Under the pieces are notes generated by a model that saw only the letters and a program-made list of their open reading frames with translations, searched no databases and was not told where the DNA came from. A stretch of DNA of 58,501 nucleotides from an uncultured Anaerolineales bacterium (GTDB lineage: Bacteria > Chloroflexota > Anaerolineae > B4-G1 > SLSP01). Every line of letters starts with the position of its first letter. Position 1 is the first letter of the stretch. The stretch spans positions 1 through 58,501 of the forward strand of contig CAYTGR010000009.1 of the NCBI GenBank assembly GCA_964437445.1, in the 5' to 3' direction. Made by a program: the position numbers and the translations under genes. Positions 839 to 5,679 of the stretch are shown one piece after another.

Positions 839-982
839 GGGGCTGACCTCAGGCTACTTTCGCGGTCCCCGCACTCCCTGATGCGGTTCGGGTTGCCCCA
901 CCTGGATCAACGCTTCATTGACAATTTCCACCGCCATGTGCTGCCGGCTGTCCATCTTGACCTCCTGGTTCTGATCTGCTCC

Positions 983-1105
983 TTACCGAACCGACGGGAC
1001 CTTTTTTGTCACCTGCGCCGCCCGGATCAGGCGCATTCGCTGCGCTTCCAGCTGCTTTTCCTGTGCGTAGAACACCGCCAGCCGTAGAAATAAATCCGCG
1101 TTCAT
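983..1105 (-). CDS. Small hypothetical protein, 40 aa (MNADLFLRLAVFYAQEKQLEAQRMRLIRAAQVTKKVPSVR). It is a paralog of the adjacent 40-aa ORF.
   Basis: ATG preceded by GGAGGTG SD. ~45% identical to the neighbouring small ORF, with a shared motif Y-x-QEKQ-x3-R-x2-RLIRAA. Not in the supplied track (<60 aa). Confidence 0.4.
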   Translation of the reverse strand: MNADLFLRLAVFYAQEKQLEAQRMRLIRAAQVTKKVPSVR

Positions 1106-1132
1106 CCACGCACCTCCATCATCCCTTGACGA

Positions 1133-1255
1133 TTACCGGCGACCTTGCCGGGTCCCCTTAGCCGCCCGAATCAGGCGGGTCTGCCGAGCCGCTTGCTGCT
1201 TTTCCTGCGTGTAGCTCGCCACTATCTGCTGCATCTCAAACAGGTTCCCGTTCAT
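1133..1255 (-). CDS. Small hypothetical protein, 40 aa (MNGNLFEMQQIVASYTQEKQQAARQTRLIRAAKGTRQGRR). It is a paralog of ORF 983-1105.
   Basis: ATG preceded by GGGAGG SD. A minus-strand sigma70-like promoter lies upstream at 1307-1335. Confidence 0.4.
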   Translation of the reverse strand: MNGNLFEMQQIVASYTQEKQQAARQTRLIRAAKGTRQGRR

Positions 1256-1306
1256 CTTTTTCCTCCCGCCGTTTCCGGCTTAATTTACTCACCCTCAACT
1301 GTTATT

Positions 1307-1335
1307 ATTTTAACACATAATATCAATTTTGTCAA
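1307..1335 (-). promoter_or_regulatory. sigma70-type promoter on the minus strand (TTGACA-N17-TAAAAT) for the small-ORF pair
   Basis: The minus strand reads TTGACAaaattgatattatgtgtTAAAAT within an AT-rich intergenic island. It is divergent from the plus-strand promoter at 1430-1457. Confidence 0.45.
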
Positions 1336-1429: not shown

Positions 1430-1457
1430 TTGACAATTAAATTCCTTATGGCATAAT
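1430..1457 (+). promoter_or_regulatory. sigma70 promoter with extended -10 (TTGACA-N16-TGgCATAAT) driving the T-box leader
   Basis: TTGACA at 1430-1435, TG at 1449-1450 and CATAAT at 1452-1457. Confidence 0.6.
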
Positions 1458-1463
1458 CGCAGC

Positions 1464-1728
1464 TAATGGCGTTGATGGAGACGAGTAAGCGCGAGGCGCG
1501 GCCTCAGCGAGTCCGGGAGGGTGTGAGCCGGATGCCAGACGCGCGCCGAAGATCCCTCCGGAGCTGCTCGCCGAACGGTCAAACCCAGTAAGTGGAGCCG
1601 ACTTCGCCCCCCGTTAACGGGGCGCGGCGGTGATCGCCGCCGCCAGAGAGGCGCTGCTGTGGCAGTGCAACCAGGGTGGTACCGCGAGAGCAACCGCTCC
1701 CGTCCCTGTGGGACGGGAGCGGTTTTTT
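1464..1728 (+). ncRNA. T-box riboswitch leader (tRNA-sensing transcription attenuator), probably Ile-specific
   Basis: Canonical T-box sequence AGGGTGGTACCGCG at 1673-1686. The antiterminator helices GGG[UGGUACC]GCG-agagcaac-CGC-u-CCC compete with the terminator CCGCTCCCGTCCC-tgtg-GGACGGGAGCGG-TTTTTT (1694-1728). The stem I base resembles the GA/K-turn motif (GATGGAGACGAGTAAG). A possible specifier lies in a GAAGAUCC context, where AUC codes Ile. Confidence 0.8.
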
Positions 1729-1765
1729 GGTGGCTGCCGCCTATGAGCTCAATTAAAGAAGCAAC

Positions 1766-1924
1766 TTAAAAATTGAAGGTAGCCGGATCAACCAGGCTAA
1801 GACCAGGTACACGGGCAAAATGGACCTGGTTGCGAGTCACCAAAGGCACCTCATGAGCCAAACAGATGCCTGCAATGAGCATATCAGGCAATCCAATGTC
1901 AACTACCACGAACGTGGTTTCCAT
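1766..1924 (-). pseudogene. N-terminally truncated PIN-domain (VapC-like) toxin remnant, 52 aa
   Basis: METTFVVVDIGLPDMLIAGICLAHEVPLVTRNQVHFARVPGLSLVDPATFNF matches only the C-terminal half of VapC (D..IA..A..H...LVTRN..F.RVPGL). The N-terminal catalytic Asp region is absent. An in-frame stop lies 9 codons upstream of the ATG. It overlaps the antitoxin gene in a different frame. Confidence 0.4.
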
Positions 1925-2145
1925 GTTGCCCACATGGCTTCGCGTTGTTGATCAAAAGCAGCTTCATCCTCCGGTCCCCAACTGCCATAAAGCTGCTCTA
2001 GAACCTCGTCCAGCCGGTCAGGAACAGCCACGGCCGGCTCGGGTTTGATAATCAAGGGATCGCCAGGTTGCAATCCTAACCGCAGCAAACTATCGCGAGG
2101 AATGACCAAATCTGTACCTTGAAAGATCAACACTAATTCGCTCAT
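1903..2145 (-). CDS. AbrB/MazE-type (SpoVT_AbrB swapped-hairpin) antitoxin-like protein
   Basis: MSELVLIFQGTDLVIPRDSLLRLGLQPGDPLIIKPEP fits the AbrB/MazE N-terminal fold pattern. An own promoter lies on the minus strand at 2166-2194 (TTGTCA-N17-TATGAT), with a GAGAGG SD. The track's TTG start at 2163 would lie upstream of the predicted TSS. Confidence 0.45.
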   Translation of the reverse strand: MSELVLIFQGTDLVIPRDSLLRLGLQPGDPLIIKPEPAVAVPDRLDEVLEQLYGSWGPEDEAAFDQQREAMWATWKPRSW

Positions 2146-2165
2146 CTCCAACCTCTCTTTCAAAC

Positions 2166-2194
2166 ATCATAGCCCGAATTCAGGTTTTTGACAA
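2166..2194 (-). promoter_or_regulatory. sigma70-like promoter on the minus strand (TTGTCA-N17-TATGAT) for the toxin-antitoxin cassette
   Basis: The minus strand reads cTTGTCAaaaacctgaattcgggcTATGATg. Confidence 0.45.
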
Positions 2195-2235
2195 GAGTGA
2201 AAAGACATCCCTGGGGGAAGTTTTAAGGAGGAAAA

Positions 2236-5200
2236 ATGTTCAAACCTGTCAGCAATCAAGTAGATTTCGTGGCCCAGGAGCACGCCATGCTGGACTTCTG
2301 GCGAACGACGCGCGCGTTTGAGACGCTACGCGCGCTGCGTCGCGCAGCACCGCACTGGTCCTTCATTGACGGCCCTATCACCGCCAACAACCCCATGGGT
2401 GTCCATCACGGCTGGGGCCGTTCCTACAAGGACCTCTGGCAGCGTTTTTGGGCGATGCGCGGCTACCAGCTCCGCTACCAAAACGGCTTTGATTGCCAGG
2501 GCCTCTGGGTAGAAGTGGAAGTGGAGAAAGAAAAGGGGTTTAAGACCAAGCGGGAGATTGAAGCCCACGGGCTGGCCCGTTTTGTGCTGGATTGCAAGGC
2601 CCGCGTCCTGCGCCAGGCCGCCCGCCAGACTGAGCAATCTATCCGCCTGGGCTACTGGATGGACTGGAACGACCCCGCCACGCTCCGCTGGCTCGCCGAC
2701 AAATTGCAGGAAGACCCGCAGCAGCAGGTAACGGTTGCCGGGCCAGCCGGCCCCGTCACCGGCACCGTGGAACAGGTCGTCGGCCGGCTGGGCCTGCCGG
2801 AACTCGGCGGCTCTTATTTCACCTTTTCCACCGAGAACAACTACACCATCTGGTCTTTCCTCAAAAAGGTCTGGCAAAAAGGGTGGCTCTACAAAGGGCG
2901 CGATGTGATGCCCTGGTGCTCCCGTTGTGCCACCGGCCTCAGCCAGCACGAGATCGTCACCGAGGGCTACCAGGAGTTGACGCACGACTCGGTCGTGCTG
3001 CGCTTCCCGCTGCGGGGGCGTGAGCGCGAGGCGCTGCTCGTCTGGACAACCACGCCGTGGACGCTGACCAGCAACGTCGCCGCCGCCGTCGGACCGGCGC
3101 TGACCTACGTCCAGGTCCGGGCCGCCGACGGCTGGACCTACTACCTTTCCGAGGGGACGCTGCCCCGCGTGTTGAAGGGCAAGTATGAGATTGTGGCCCG
3201 GCTCAAGGGCGCGGACCTGGTCAGCTGGACTTACAGCGGCCCCTTTGACGACCTGTCCGCCGCGCAGCAGGCCGGCGTCCCGGCCCAGCATCGCGTCATC
3301 CCCTGGGACGCCGTCGGCGAGGAAGAAGGGACCGGCATCGTCCACATCGCTCCCGGCTGCGGTGCGGAGGACTTCCAGCTGGGGAAGGAATTTGGGCTGG
3401 CGGCGCTGGCCCCGCTGACGGAAGAAGGGCTCTTCCTGCCGGAGTTCGGCTGGCTGGCCGGGCGCGACGTCCACGAGGTTGCCCACGACATCTTCCACGC
3501 GCTGGAAGACAAGGGCCTGCTCTACCGGGTGGATGCTTACACACACCGCTACCCGGTCTGCTGGCGCTGCGCCTCACCGCTGGTCTTCCGCCTGGTGGAT
3601 GAGTGGTTTATCAGCATGGGGCCGCTCTACGACAAGCCGCGCGCCGAAGTCACGCCGGAGGAGAAAGAGCGCAGCCTGCGCTACCAGATCATGGATGTGG
3701 CCGATGAGATCCGGTGGATCCCCGAATTCGGCTACGAGCGCGAGCTGGACTGGCTGCGCAACATGTCCGACTGGATGATCTCCAAGAAACGGTACTGGGG
3801 GCTGGCCCTGCCGATCTGGGAATGTGCCTGCGGCCACCACGAGGTCATCGGCGACGAAGATGAACTCCACGCCCGCGCCATCGCCGGCTGGGAGGAGTTC
3901 GCCGGGCACACGCCCCACCGCCCCTACGTGGACGCGGTAAAAATCGCCTGTCCCCGCTGCGGCGGCGTGATGTCCCGCATCCCCGATGTCGGCAACCCCT
4001 GGCTGGATGCCGGCTCGGTCGCCTACTCCACGCTCCAATATCGCACCAACCGCGACTTCTGGGCGCAGTGGTTCCCGGCGAGCTGGATCAGCGAATCGTT
4101 CCCCGGCCAGTTCCGCAACTGGTTCTATAGCCTGATCACCATGAGCACCGTCTTTGAGCGGCGTGCACCGACCCAAATCATCCACGGCTACGCCACGCTG
4201 CTGGCCGAGGATGGCCGTCCCATGCACAAATCCTGGGGGAACGCCATCTGGTTTGACGACGCCGCCGAAAAGATGGGCGTAGATACCATGCGCTGGCTCT
4301 ATCTCAACCAGAAACTGGATGCCAACCTGCTCTTCGGCTACACCAAAGCCGATGAGACCCGCCGCCGCTTCCTCATCCCGCTGTGGAATGTCTATGCGTT
4401 CCTGGTGAACTATGCCCGCACAGATGATTGGCAGCCGCCAGCCGAATGGCGAATGGCGAATGGCGAGCAAATGGCGAATGGCGAATGGCAAATGGCAAAT
4501 GGCGAATGGCGAATGGAAGCAGAGAATTCGCCATGCGCAACACGCAATTTGTTGGATAAGTGGATTCTTGCCCGCCTTAAGGAGACCGTCGCGGCCATGA
4601 CAGCCGGTTACGAAGCCTACATCCCGCTGGATATCGCCACGCCCGCCGAGGCCTTCTTAGATGACCTGAGCAACTGGTACATCCGCCGCAGCCGCCGCCG
4701 TTTCTGGCTCAAACGCGGGCTGGATGCCGCCGCCGACGCCGACAAAGAGGCTGCTTACCGGACGCTTTACACCGTCCTGGTGACTTTCACCAAGCTGCTG
4801 GCGCCGGTCATTCCCTTCGTCACCGAGGCGATGTACCAGAATCTGGTGCGGGCCGTGGATGAGAGCGCGCCCGCCAGTGTCCACCACTGCGATTGGCCCA
4901 CCGCCGCCCCGCTGACTGCCGAGGAGCAAGAGCTGGTGGCGACGATGGCCGCCGTCCGGCAAGCGGCCGCGTTGGGCCACTCGGTGCGCGCCACGCAAAA
5001 CCTCAAGGTGCGCCAGCCGCTCGCACGCGCGTTGATCGCTGCTGATCCGCGCCGCCGGGCCGAACTGGCGCAGCTGCTGGACCTGCTGGCCGATGAGTTG
5101 AACGTCAAAGAGGTCGCCTTTGTGGAGCGCGAAAGCGAGCTGGTCACCTACCGCCTGTTGCCGGTGAACAAGACCTTAGGGCCGAAATTCGGCGCGCGCT

Positions 5201-5679
5201 TCCCGCTGGTGCGCAAGGCACTGGAAGCGGTGGACGCCACCGCCGCCGTGGCCCAACTGCACGCGGGCGAGCCGCTCACGCTAACCCTGGCCGATGGCAG
5301 TGAGGCGGTTCTCATGCCCGACGAGGTGCTCATCCAGAGCCAGCCGCGCGCCGGCTATGGCGTGGCCGGCGAAGGGGGCATCGTCGTCGCACTGGATACC
5401 ACGCTCACGCCGGAGTTGCTCGCCGAGGGACTGGCGCGCGAGGTCATCCGCCGGGTGCAGGACCTGCGCAAGGAGGCTGATTACGCCCTCACCGACCGCA
5501 TCGTCGTCCAGTACCGGGCCGCCGGGTCCCTGGCCGAAGCCATCACCGCCTTCCGCGCCACCATCGCCGGGGAAGTCCTGGCCGACGCTTTAGAGGCCGT
5601 GGACGCCCCCGTTGGCGATGCCACGTTGGAAGACACCGTGGAAGGACAACCGCTGCTCCTGGCAGTTAAACGCTCGTAA
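2236..5679 (+). CDS. ileS: Isoleucine--tRNA ligase, type 2 (eukaryote/archaeal-like IleRS)
   Basis: 1147 aa. The N-terminus MFKPV..FVAQEH..LDFWR is type-2 IleRS-like. Other motifs are HHGWGRSYKD (HIGH-like region), WTTTPWTLTSN, the editing domain, a KMSKS-like PMHKSWGN, and a C-terminal Cys-rich/anticodon-binding region. A strong SD (AAGGAGG) is present. Confidence 0.93.
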   Translation: MFKPVSNQVDFVAQEHAMLDFWRTTRAFETLRALRRAAPHWSFIDGPITANNPMGVHHGWGRSYKDLWQRFWAMRGYQLRYQNGFDCQGLWVEVEVEKEKGFKTKREIEAHGLARFVLDCKARVLRQAARQTEQSIRLGYWMDWNDPATLRWLADKLQEDPQQQVTVAGPAGPVTGTVEQVVGRLGLPELGGSYFTFSTENNYTIWSFLKKVWQKGWLYKGRDVMPWCSRCATGLSQHEIVTEGYQELTHDSVVLRFPLRGREREALLVWTTTPWTLTSNVAAAVGPALTYVQVRAADGWTYYLSEGTLPRVLKGKYEIVARLKGADLVSWTYSGPFDDLSAAQQAGVPAQHRVIPWDAVGEEEGTGIVHIAPGCGAEDFQLGKEFGLAALAPLTEEGLFLPEFGWLAGRDVHEVAHDIFHALEDKGLLYRVDAYTHRYPVCWRCASPLVFRLVDEWFISMGPLYDKPRAEVTPEEKERSLRYQIMDVADEIRWIPEFGYERELDWLRNMSDWMISKKRYWGLALPIWECACGHHEVIGDEDELHARAIAGWEEFAGHTPHRPYVDAVKIACPRCGGVMSRIPDVGNPWLDAGSVAYSTLQYRTNRDFWAQWFPASWISESFPGQFRNWFYSLITMSTVFERRAPTQIIHGYATLLAEDGRPMHKSWGNAIWFDDAAEKMGVDTMRWLYLNQKLDANLLFGYTKADETRRRFLIPLWNVYAFLVNYARTDDWQPPAEWRMANGEQMANGEWQMANGEWRMEAENSPCATRNLLDKWILARLKETVAAMTAGYEAYIPLDIATPAEAFLDDLSNWYIRRSRRRFWLKRGLDAAADADKEAAYRTLYTVLVTFTKLLAPVIPFVTEAMYQNLVRAVDESAPASVHHCDWPTAAPLTAEEQELVATMAAVRQAAALGHSVRATQNLKVRQPLARALIAADPRRRAELAQLLDLLADELNVKEVAFVERESELVTYRLLPVNKTLGPKFGARFPLVRKALEAVDATAAVAQLHAGEPLTLTLADGSEAVLMPDEVLIQSQPRAGYGVAGEGGIVVALDTTLTPELLAEGLAREVIRRVQDLRKEADYALTDRIVVQYRAAGSLAEAITAFRATIAGEVLADALEAVDAPVGDATLEDTVEGQPLLLAVKRS
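4444..4516 (+). repeat. About 10.4 copies of the heptanucleotide tandem repeat GAATGGC / AAATGGC, inside the ileS reading frame
   Basis: Sequence gaatggc x3, gagcaaatggc, gaatggc x2, aaatggc x2, gaatggc, gaatgg. It translates in-frame as ...PAEWRMANGEQMANGEWQMANGEWRME... with a 7-aa periodicity (3 units = 21 nt). It is followed by an inverted partial copy, gaattcgccat. Confidence 0.9.

What the first reader, a model, noticed from the sequence alone, without database searches (positions are those of the whole stretch)
1430..2235. Ile-type T-box leader about 500 bp upstream of ileS, with a reverse-oriented toxin-antitoxin remnant inserted between leader and gene
A strong sigma70 promoter (1430-1457) drives a textbook T-box: stem I GA-motif, T-box AGGGTGGTACCGCG, and antiterminator/terminator alternatives at 1673-1728. 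No plus-strand gene follows until ileS at 2236, and ileS lacks a convincing promoter of its own (TTGACA at 2186 has no -10). The interval is occupied by a minus-strand VapB-like antitoxin gene and a truncated PIN fragment with their own promoter. Read-through from the T-box would therefore be antisense to the toxin-antitoxin cassette before reaching ileS. Possible explanations: (i) a toxin-antitoxin cassette inserted into a T-box-ileS leader, leaving an unusually long leader; (ii) deliberate antisense coupling of ileS induction to toxin-antitoxin silencing; or (iii) the T-box is decoupled.
Basis: partly seen in the sequence, partly recalled or inferred. Interest (0 to 1): 0.6.

Follow-up and report, generated by a model that had tools for sequence, protein, structure and literature searches.

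The report
Ile T-box leader interrupted by toxin-antitoxin
A genuine isoleucine-sensing T-box RNA switch for the isoleucyl-tRNA synthetase gene has a small foreign toxin-antitoxin cassette, its toxin crippled here by a deletion, lodged backwards between switch and gene; related bacteria repeatedly carry such cassettes at this spot, which looks like a quirk of genome evolution and not a new mechanism.

Summary
Window 1463-1730 is a full-length T-box (Rfam RF00230, 89.4 bits, E 7e-20). That is just under Rfam's cutoff of 93, but inside the 84-107 bit range of the same element in relatives. It has a strong promoter, an AUC (Ile) specifier at 1552-1554 that is identical in all 56 relatives examined, the T-box 14-mer, and a 15-bp terminator with a U-tract. 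In 37 of 64 related Chloroflexota loci this T-box sits 74-234 nt from ileS; here the distance is 562 nt.

The gap holds a compositionally foreign, reverse-oriented PIN (VapC-type) toxin cassette with its own promoter. Other strains of the same species carry an intact 133-aa PIN gene at this site. The window is a 243-bp in-frame deletion allele.

No plus-strand terminator or promoter lies in the gap. This is inferred, not shown.

At least eight relatives also carry reverse TA-type cassettes (VapBC-like, TumE, ParE/RelB-like) at this site, and 18 carry a co-directional AlaXM-like gene. Adaptive antisense coupling is not excluded but is unlikely. Interest is moderate to low.

The parts
1430..1457 (+). 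Sigma-70-type promoter of the T-box leader (TTGACA, 16-nt spacer, TG-n-CATAAT); inferred transcription start near 1464
   Evidence: 11 of 12 matches, TG present; 3 sites found against 1.1 expected in shuffles
1463..1730 (+). T-box leader RNA, transcription-attenuation type, including the terminator and U-tract
   Evidence: RF00230, 89.4 bits, E 6.9e-20, model 1-219; relatives 84-107 bits; fold z-score -3.15
1469..1564 (+). Stem I, with the AGUA/GAA specifier-loop motifs and the distal loop
   Evidence: 55 sequences, 21 pairs, 12 with compensatory changes
1552..1554 (+). Specifier codon AUC (Ile), in the context GAA-G-AUC-C
   Evidence: AUC in 56 of 56 relatives; the preceding base varies
1673..1686 (+). 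Conserved T-box sequence AGGGUGGUACCGCG. The UGGU bulge (1677-1680) would pair with the ACCA-3' end of a tRNA
1692..1730 (+). Intrinsic terminator: 15-bp stem, 3-nt loop and U-tract. Its 5' arm overlaps the 3' half of the antiterminator
1766..1924 (-). vapC (PIN toxin) remnant, a 52-aa ORF. It is an in-frame 243-bp (81-codon) internal deletion allele, with the junction at 1894-1897
   Evidence: intact 133-aa PIN in L085 and L086, Pfam PF01850 at 45.1 bits
1903..2145 (-). 80-aa antitoxin-like gene. It overlaps the vapC start by 22 nt and has a GGAG ribosome-binding site
   Evidence: 60% identical partner of the intact PIN in L018; weak TIGR02609 hit
2166..2194 (-). Promoter of the cassette (TTGTCA-17-TATGAT), firing away from ileS and towards the T-box
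   Evidence: An equivalent TTGCTA-17-TATGCT site is read directly from the L018 sequence
1731..2235 (+). 505-nt untranslated stretch that T-box read-through must cross to reach ileS, antisense to the cassette. It has no plus-strand terminator or promoter; 2091-2210 is C-rich and G-poor
2236..5679 (+). ileS, isoleucyl-tRNA synthetase (1147 aa); AAGGAGG ribosome-binding site at 2224-2230

Best explanation
Window 1430-1730 is the promoter and Ile-specific T-box attenuator that controls ileS in this Chloroflexota (Anaerolineae-like) lineage. Uncharged tRNA-Ile(GAU) would pair with the AUC specifier and the UGGU bulge, stabilise the antiterminator, and let RNA polymerase pass the 1692-1730 terminator. 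A foreign type II toxin-antitoxin cassette (PIN/VapC toxin plus an 80-aa partner, with its own promoter) was inserted in reverse into the originally ~60-100-nt spacer between terminator and ileS. As a result, read-through transcripts must run ~505 nt antisense to the cassette before reaching the ileS ribosome-binding site. In this strain the toxin has since been inactivated by a 243-bp in-frame deletion, while the antitoxin-like gene and its promoter remain. The cassette is best seen as a selfish or neutral passenger. It may be hard to purge, because imprecise deletions would hit an essential gene or its leader. Shown here: the identity of the T-box, its Ile specificity by conservation, the foreign composition and reverse orientation of the cassette, and the intact, deleted and disrupted alleles in sister strains. 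Inferred: that ileS transcription still originates at 1430-1457 and crosses the cassette.
For: The T-box is real and Ile-type. The same T-box abuts ileS in 37 of 64 relatives (74-234 nt), and none shows it attached to another synthetase gene. The insert is foreign: G+C 0.49 against 0.65-0.68, third-position G+C 0.47-0.49 against 0.82. Cassette identity: an intact 133-aa PIN in L085 and L086 (same species, identical 80-aa partner) and a 134-aa PIN in L018, both above Pfam's cutoff. The window allele is a 243-bp in-frame deletion, also seen in independent assemblies L084 and L087. L082 is a third, differently disrupted allele. Coupling to ileS: no plus-strand terminator-like site and no credible promoter in 1731-2235. 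The T-box stays intact, with a score in the lineage's range, in loci where 0.8-2.4 kb separates it from ileS (L018 at 100.7 bits, L021 at 84.1), which argues for continued selection. A described precedent for accidental reverse insertion between a T-box and its target is PMC9943018.
Against: There are no transcript data. A 505-nt untranslated RNA with a C-rich, G-poor tract (C/G above 2 at 2091-2210) could be subject to Rho termination. Convergent transcription from the cassette promoter (2194-2166) could collide with read-through. The promoter scan is consensus-based and could miss a non-canonical ileS promoter. The Rfam score is below the curated cutoff (89.4 against 93). Whether the window and L018 cassettes share one ancestral insertion or were acquired separately is unresolved, so the argument from long persistence of the T-box is weaker than it looks.
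Confidence: 0.7

Rival explanations
1. Adaptive antisense coupling. T-box read-through during Ile starvation is used to silence or destabilise the toxin-antitoxin mRNA, or to evict its repressor. That would free the toxin and tie growth arrest to tRNA-Ile charging. Conversely, cassette transcription could throttle ileS.
For: Reverse-oriented TA-type cassettes recur between this T-box and ileS in relatives: VapBC-like in L018; TumE pairs or remnants in L021, L018, L006, L014, L041, L070 and L039; ParE/RelB-like in L058 and L070. Only one plus-strand TA pair was seen (UPF0175/PIN in L018). Only about 0.7% of T-boxes in a broad survey have an antisense downstream gene. Riboswitch-driven antisense control has experimental precedents in C. 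acetobutylicum and Listeria (cited in PMC9943018).
Against: The toxin is dead in this window and differently disrupted in L082, and TumE cassettes are fragmentary in L018, L014, L006 and L070. That is the decay pattern of selfish elements, not of a maintained regulator. Independent insertion events are few (about 4-6 reverse against 1 forward), so the orientation bias is not significant. Most relatives (37 of 64) have no insert. The cassette families differ, so no specific partner is conserved. The tblastn control used queries taken from the gaps and is biased.
Confidence: 0.1
2. Decoupling. The insertion separated ileS from the T-box. ileS is now transcribed from an unrecognised promoter in or next to the cassette, and the T-box is vestigial or merely produces a terminated or antisense RNA.
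For: The 505-nt untranslated gap with a possible Rho-loading tract. A plus-strand TTGACA at 2188-2193, 43 nt upstream of the ileS start. Chloroflexota promoters are poorly characterised, so a consensus scan may miss them.
Against: No -10 element lies at any allowed spacing from that TTGACA, which is mostly the reverse complement of the cassette's own -35. The T-box shows no decay: full-length model match, intact specifier, 14-mer, antiterminator and terminator. It is 98.5% identical between deleted and intact alleles. T-boxes in other insert-bearing loci are equally intact.
Confidence: 0.18
3. Not a real T-box: a chance resemblance that fails Rfam's curated threshold.
For: The gathering-score scan of the window returns nothing: 89.4 bits against a cutoff of 93.
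Against: E 6.9e-20 with a full-length model match. The element is conserved with compensatory base changes in 55 relatives upstream of ileS. Relatives score up to 106.7 bits.
Confidence: 0.01

Closest known systems
Canonical transcriptional T-box leaders of aminoacyl-tRNA synthetase genes (Rfam RF00230; Firmicutes type, previously also reported in Chloroflexi, e.g. PMC2494555)
   Same: Stem I with a specifier loop, the conserved 14-mer with a UGGN bulge, mutually exclusive antiterminator and terminator, and a specifier that matches the downstream synthetase (AUC with ileS).
   Different: The regulated gene lies 505 nt beyond the terminator instead of a few tens of nt, and the interval is antisense to another operon. 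The base after the specifier is C rather than the usual purine (50 of 56 in this clade; the purine rule is from my own knowledge). The score falls slightly below Rfam's cutoff.
T-box followed by a reverse-oriented transposase inserted ahead of its canonical target (B. thuringiensis YBT-1518; Serrano-Gutierrez and Merino 2023, PMC9943018)
   Same: A mobile or selfish gene lies in reverse between a T-box and the gene that the T-box regulates canonically in relatives. The authors interpret it as an accidental insertion.
   Different: Here the passenger is a type II toxin-antitoxin cassette, not a transposase. It is polymorphic within the species, and similar cassettes recur at the same site across a clade. 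The supplements of that survey that are held as text list no T-box/TA case.
Riboswitch-controlled antisense RNAs (SAM riboswitch at the C. acetobutylicum ubiG operon; B12 riboswitch/AspocR in Listeria) and the excludon concept, as summarised in PMC9943018
   Same: Read-through of a ligand-controlled terminator produces RNA antisense to a neighbouring operon.
   Different: In those systems the antisense target is the regulated gene and there is a metabolic logic. Here a sense-oriented canonical target (ileS) follows, and the antisense target is a decaying selfish cassette.
VapBC-type type II toxin-antitoxin modules
   Same: A small upstream gene overlaps a PIN-domain toxin gene, with a promoter directly upstream. 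Intact alleles pass the Pfam PIN cutoff and resemble VapC models.
   Different: The partner protein belongs to a very small family: 4 clusters among 5.8 billion proteins by word-seeded search. It has no confident match to known antitoxin folds. The toxin is internally deleted in this window.

Membership tests
T-box leader (RF00230) | Covariance-model score at or above Rfam's gathering score (93 bits) | tested here: not met
   89.4 bits, E 6.9e-20, full model. Orthologous T-boxes in relatives score 83.7-106.7 bits, four of six above the cutoff.
T-box leader (RF00230) | Stem I with a specifier loop (AGUA/GAA S-turn motifs) presenting a codon that matches the regulated gene | tested here: met
   AUC at 1552-1554 in GAA-G-AUC-C. 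Identical in 56 of 56 ileS-linked relatives. 12 of 21 Stem I pairs covary.
T-box leader (RF00230) | Conserved 14-nt T-box sequence with a UGGN bulge inside an antiterminator that competes with a terminator | tested here: met
   AGGGUGGUACCGCG at 1673-1686; antiterminator pairs in the Rfam alignment; 15-bp terminator with U-tract at 1692-1730.
T-box leader (RF00230) | Lies in the 5' leader of the gene it regulates | tested here: inconclusive
   It directly abuts ileS in 37 relatives. Here it is separated by 505 nt containing a reverse cassette. No intervening plus-strand terminator or promoter was found, but no transcript evidence exists.
T-box leader (RF00230) | Antitermination induced by uncharged cognate tRNA | not testable with these tools
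   Needs in-vitro transcription or a reporter assay. No tRNA gene lies in the window.
VapBC type II toxin-antitoxin | PIN-domain toxin with a complete catalytic core | tested here: not met
   The window ORF is 52 aa, Pfam PIN E 0.045, last 30 profile positions only. 81 residues are deleted. Intact alleles L085 and L086 (45.1 bits) and L018 (35.3 bits) meet it.
VapBC type II toxin-antitoxin | Small antitoxin gene immediately upstream of, and overlapping, the toxin gene, with its own promoter | tested here: met
   80-aa ORF at 2145..1903 overlaps the vapC start (1924) by 22 nt; promoter at 2194..2166.
VapBC type II toxin-antitoxin | Antitoxin belongs to a recognised DNA-binding antitoxin fold (AbrB/SpoVT, RHH, Phd/YefM, HTH) | tested here: inconclusive
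   Only a weak TIGR02609 'addiction module antidote' hit (E 3e-4, 21 bits against a cutoff of 55.9). No Pfam, PDB or PADLOC hit. The AlphaFold model has pLDDT 54.5 and was not searched further.
VapBC type II toxin-antitoxin | Toxicity of the toxin and its neutralisation by the partner | not testable with these tools
   Needs expression experiments.
Antisense-acting riboswitch (sense of PMC9943018) | The gene immediately downstream of the riboswitch is on the opposite strand, so read-through is antisense to it | tested here: met
   vapC remnant and partner at 1766-2145 on the minus strand, directly after the terminator.
Antisense-acting riboswitch (sense of PMC9943018) | A functional logic links the sensed ligand to the antisense-regulated gene, and the arrangement is conserved | tested here: inconclusive
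   Different TA families recur in reverse at this site in at least 8 relatives. Many are decayed, most relatives lack any, and the toxin is dead here.

The most novel reading that the evidence does not exclude
In Anaerolineae-type Chloroflexota the spacer between the ileS T-box and ileS is a preferred, orientation-biased home for translation-targeting toxin-antitoxin modules (VapBC-like, TumE/TumA, ParE/RelB-like). T-box read-through, meaning the charging state of tRNA-Ile, would control these modules by antisense transcription. That would give a direct, hard-wired link between amino-acid starvation and toxin activation, or conversely let the TA promoter throttle ileS.
Probability: 0.1. Interest if true: 0.7.

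Novelty: new variant of a known kind. Interest (0 to 1): 0.38.

Why it matters
The T-box itself is ordinary. What is mildly new is the architecture. An essential synthetase gene is apparently still served by a leader that has been stretched to about 770 nt by a reverse toxin-antitoxin cassette. The same site has collected at least three different reverse TA families plus other passengers across a clade of uncultured Chloroflexota. If ileS really is expressed by read-through, this shows how far a T-box can act and how much antisense and convergent transcription it tolerates. It also illustrates a plausible 'safe harbour' for selfish cassettes next to an essential gene, with toxin decay caught in progress as intact, in-frame-deleted and otherwise disrupted alleles within one species. 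For annotation, Rfam's T-box cutoff misses genuine members in this G+C-rich lineage.

Tried and rejected
(1) The Rfam gathering-score scan of the whole window gave no hits. The permissive scan was needed, and it showed no other RNA family in the window.

(2) Classifying the 80-aa partner failed. Pfam found nothing, PADLOC nothing, a PDB profile search nothing significant, and the AlphaFold2 model had pLDDT 54.5. I did not run a fold search because a low-confidence model gives meaningless matches.

(3) The metagenome scan for the partner protein returned only one extra locus, L082. The homolog search found only 4 clusters, so no wide comparative set exists for this cassette.

(4) I looked for target-site duplications or terminal inverted repeats around the insert. 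There are no direct repeats. A 10-nt, 90% inverted pair (1765-1774 and 2218-2227) is one of five similar pairs in 541 nt, so it was treated as chance.

(5) I looked for a hidden ileS promoter with relaxed criteria. The best candidate is GATAAT at 2047 with a 3-of-6 -35 and no TG, so it was rejected.

(6) I considered a bidirectional role for the T-box terminator in ending the cassette transcript. On the minus strand no U-tract follows the hairpin (sequence), so this is unlikely.

(7) Orientation bias of TA cassettes as evidence of function was rejected as non-significant, because independent events are few.

(8) The tblastn 'hotspot' control is biased, because the queries came from the gaps. 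I report it only as suggestive.

Full report
SOURCE AND SETTING

The window's ileS protein is found exactly on JGI metagenome contig Ga0248168_1002307. Its closest relatives, at 58-78% IleRS identity, are all uncultured Chloroflexota, mostly Anaerolineae, Thermoflexales or Caldilineae MAGs. Upstream lies a radC-like gene (87-782), then three tiny minus-strand ORFs, then an AT-rich divergent promoter region.

THE T-BOX IS REAL

A scan of the whole window at Rfam's gathering scores returns nothing. With permissive filters, RF00230 matches 1463-1710 on the plus strand over the entire model (positions 1-219) at 89.4 bits, E 6.9e-20. The cutoff is 93 (E 3.7e-18 for the whole window).

The orthologous element in six relatives scores 83.7-106.7 bits. 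T-boxes directly abutting ileS (L007 at 83.7, L012 at 94) are no better than ones separated from it by inserts (L018 at 100.7, L021 at 84.1). The low score is a property of the lineage, not decay.

All the parts are present:
- a promoter, TTGACA-16-TG-n-CATAAT, at 1430-1457 (11 of 12 matches);
- Stem I at 1469-1564;
- the 14-mer AGGGUGGUACCGCG at 1673-1686;
- an antiterminator whose 3' half is shared with a 15-bp terminator at 1692-1724, followed by a U-tract.

Across 55 relatives, 12 of 21 predicted Stem I pairs keep pairing through changes on both sides. So do 4 of the 12 pairs predicted in the terminator-region fold, 10 of which form the terminator helix.

SPECIFIER

The 3' side of the specifier loop reads GAA-G-AUC-C. 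In an unconstrained search, all 56 relatives with a retrievable Stem I have AUC at this position. The preceding base varies: A in 51, G in 3, U in 2. The codon is therefore AUC (Ile), not GAU. The UGGU bulge fits a tRNA with discriminator A73 (established T-box rules, my knowledge). The base after the codon is C in 50 of 56, not the usual purine.

WHAT THE T-BOX NORMALLY CONTROLS

In 64 of 80 related ileS loci the T-box 13-mer is found upstream of ileS. In 37 of these it is 74-234 nt from the start codon, the canonical arrangement. In the window the distance is 562 nt. It is never attached to another synthetase gene.

THE INSERT

Region 1731-2235 is 48.9% G+C, against 64.7% for ileS and 67.5% for the T-box. 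Third-position G+C is 47-49% for the cassette genes against 82% for ileS. The minus strand carries two ORFs:
- an 80-aa ORF at 2145..1903, with a GGAG ribosome-binding site and a promoter TTGTCA-17-TATGAT at 2194..2166;
- a 52-aa ORF at 1924..1766, overlapping the first by 22 nt, whose C-terminus weakly matches the end of the PIN domain (E 0.045).

Locus L018 (IleRS 72% identical) has a 60%-identical 80-aa partner and a full 134-aa PIN protein (Pfam 35.3 bits against a cutoff of 23.6; VapC-like in NCBIfam) at the same place and in the same orientation, right after its T-box terminator.

Exact-protein look-ups were decisive. Contigs L085 and L086, from other samples, carry the identical 80-aa protein followed by an intact 133-aa PIN gene (Pfam 45.1 bits), flanked by the same T-box and ileS. 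L084 and L087 carry the window's short form. Alignment shows that the window allele lacks 243 bp (81 codons, in frame), with the junction at 1894-1897. It retains only the first 9 and last ~42 residues. L082 is a third allele in which vapC diverges after about residue 88, at a contig end. The 'remnant' is therefore one allele of a cassette that is still intact in part of the population.

The partner protein is only contextually an antitoxin. It has a weak AbrB-type 'antidote' hit (TIGR02609, E 3e-4), no Pfam, PDB or PADLOC match and an unreliable structure model. The family comprises just four clusters in the 5.8-billion-protein collection.

DOES THE T-BOX STILL FEED ileS?

Evidence for:
- no plus-strand gene and no terminator-like site in 1731-2235;
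- no credible promoter there even with relaxed rules;
- the plus-strand TTGACA at 2188-2193 has no -10 and is essentially the mirror of the cassette's own -35;
- relatives with the canonical arrangement also lack a separate ileS promoter between terminator and start;
- the T-box is undecayed here and in other insert-bearing loci.

Evidence against:
- 505 nt of untranslated RNA with a C-rich, G-poor tract at 2091-2210 (C/G above 2) could recruit Rho;
- the cassette promoter fires head-on towards the T-box.

I put continued coupling at about 0.7, decoupling at about 0.18, and adaptive antisense coupling at about 0.1.

THE WIDER PATTERN

Twenty-seven of the 64 loci have gaps of 271-3725 nt. Their contents fall into three groups.
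- A plus-strand AlaXM-like editing protein in 18 loci (one of which, L037, has no identifiable T-box). It scores 282 bits, E 3e-84, just under that model's 300-bit cutoff, and all those T-boxes with a retrievable Stem I carry the AUC specifier. This is evidently a T-box-alaX-ileS operon.
- Other plus-strand passengers: GNAT, a 23S-rRNA-IVP protein, an HTH/LAGLIDADG-like ORF, and an unknown 226-230-aa protein.
- Small two-gene cassettes, almost all on the minus strand.

The minus-strand cassettes are:
- VapBC-like in L018;
- TumE (PF20126) pairs or fragments in L021, L018, L006, L014, L041 and L070, plus L039 immediately upstream of ileS;
- ParE with a RelB-like partner in L058 and L070.

One UPF0175/PIN pair lies on the plus strand in L018. 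TumE/TumA is an experimentally validated translation-targeting TA system (PMC10584680).

Homologs of these cassette proteins were found almost only in the gaps, which make up 37 kb of 780 kb, with one weak exception. That control is biased because the queries came from the gaps.

For comparison, a broad survey found 107 antisense against 15,851 sense T-boxes (0.7%). It interpreted a reverse transposase between a T-box and its normal target as accidental insertion (PMC9943018). Its supplements list one riboswitch-antisense PIN toxin, under a c-di-GMP riboswitch, and none under a T-box.

INTERPRETATION

The simplest account is a selfish cassette that landed in, or was recombined into, the short spacer of an essential gene's leader. 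There, imprecise deletions are counter-selected, so the cassette lingers and decays in place. The three vapC alleles here and the TumE fragments elsewhere fit that account. The recurrent reverse orientation is suggestive, but it rests on perhaps 4-6 independent events against one forward event. That is not significant. It could equally reflect selection against forward cassettes, whose promoters or terminators would deregulate ileS.

VERDICT

This is an ordinary Ile T-box in an unusual, but not unprecedented, configuration.

Noticed in passing
window 4443-4516 (inside ileS): A heptanucleotide tandem repeat (CGAATGG, 11 copies, 85% matches) lies in frame inside ileS. It encodes the odd 'MANGEQMANGEWQMANGEWRME' insertion between the catalytic and anticodon-binding domains. 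Similar heptamer arrays occur in the T-box variable regions or leaders of relatives (L003, L006, L007, L009, L041).
   Followed up: partly
window 854-1335, minus strand: Two paralogous 40-aa ORFs (983-1105 and 1133-1255, roughly 40% identical by eye) and a 33-aa ORF (854-955) lie downstream of a strong minus-strand promoter (1335-1307, 11 of 12 matches plus TG), divergent from the T-box promoter. They are called as genes in the JGI record and conserved in L084. No Pfam or NCBIfam hits. Function unknown.
   Followed up: partly
L004:1556-2272 and 17 other relatives (L005, L032, L037, L038, L040, L041, L058, L059, L060, L065, L068, L070, L072, L074, L076, L077, L079): An AlaXM-like alanyl-tRNA editing protein (closest model NF040865, 282 bits, E 3e-84, just under its 300-bit cutoff) is encoded between the Ile-specific (AUC) T-box and ileS. 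An alanine-family editing protein would then be co-regulated by tRNA-Ile charging, a pairing I have not seen described.
   Followed up: partly
L021:1325-1980, L041:3193-3968, L039:126-823, with fragments in L018, L006, L014, L070: TumE (DUF6516) toxin cassettes with partner genes sit in reverse orientation immediately upstream of ileS in seven relatives, several as decayed fragments.
   Followed up: partly
window 1555, and the same position in relatives (alignment A3): The nucleotide after the specifier codon is C in 50 of 56 T-boxes of this clade. Canonical T-boxes have a purine there (my knowledge), so this is a lineage-specific deviation.
   Followed up: no
L082 (Ga0067045_1028836), reverse complement 1-350: A third vapC allele in a ~97%-identical strain. 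The N-terminal ~88 codons are intact, then the sequence is unrelated up to the contig end. That could be an insertion, a rearrangement or an assembly break at a polymorphic site. Contig L088 also starts exactly at the deletion junction (window 1897).
   Followed up: partly
L057, L058, L070, L073, L078 T-box 14-mer: These T-boxes read UGGC instead of UGGU in the acceptor-pairing bulge. That would imply a G73 rather than an A73 discriminator on the cognate tRNA-Ile in those lineages.
   Followed up: no
L006:2788-3984: A 398-aa plus-strand ORF with multiple HTH domains and a LAGLIDADG_3 match lies between the T-box and ileS, another probable mobile passenger at this site.
   Followed up: no
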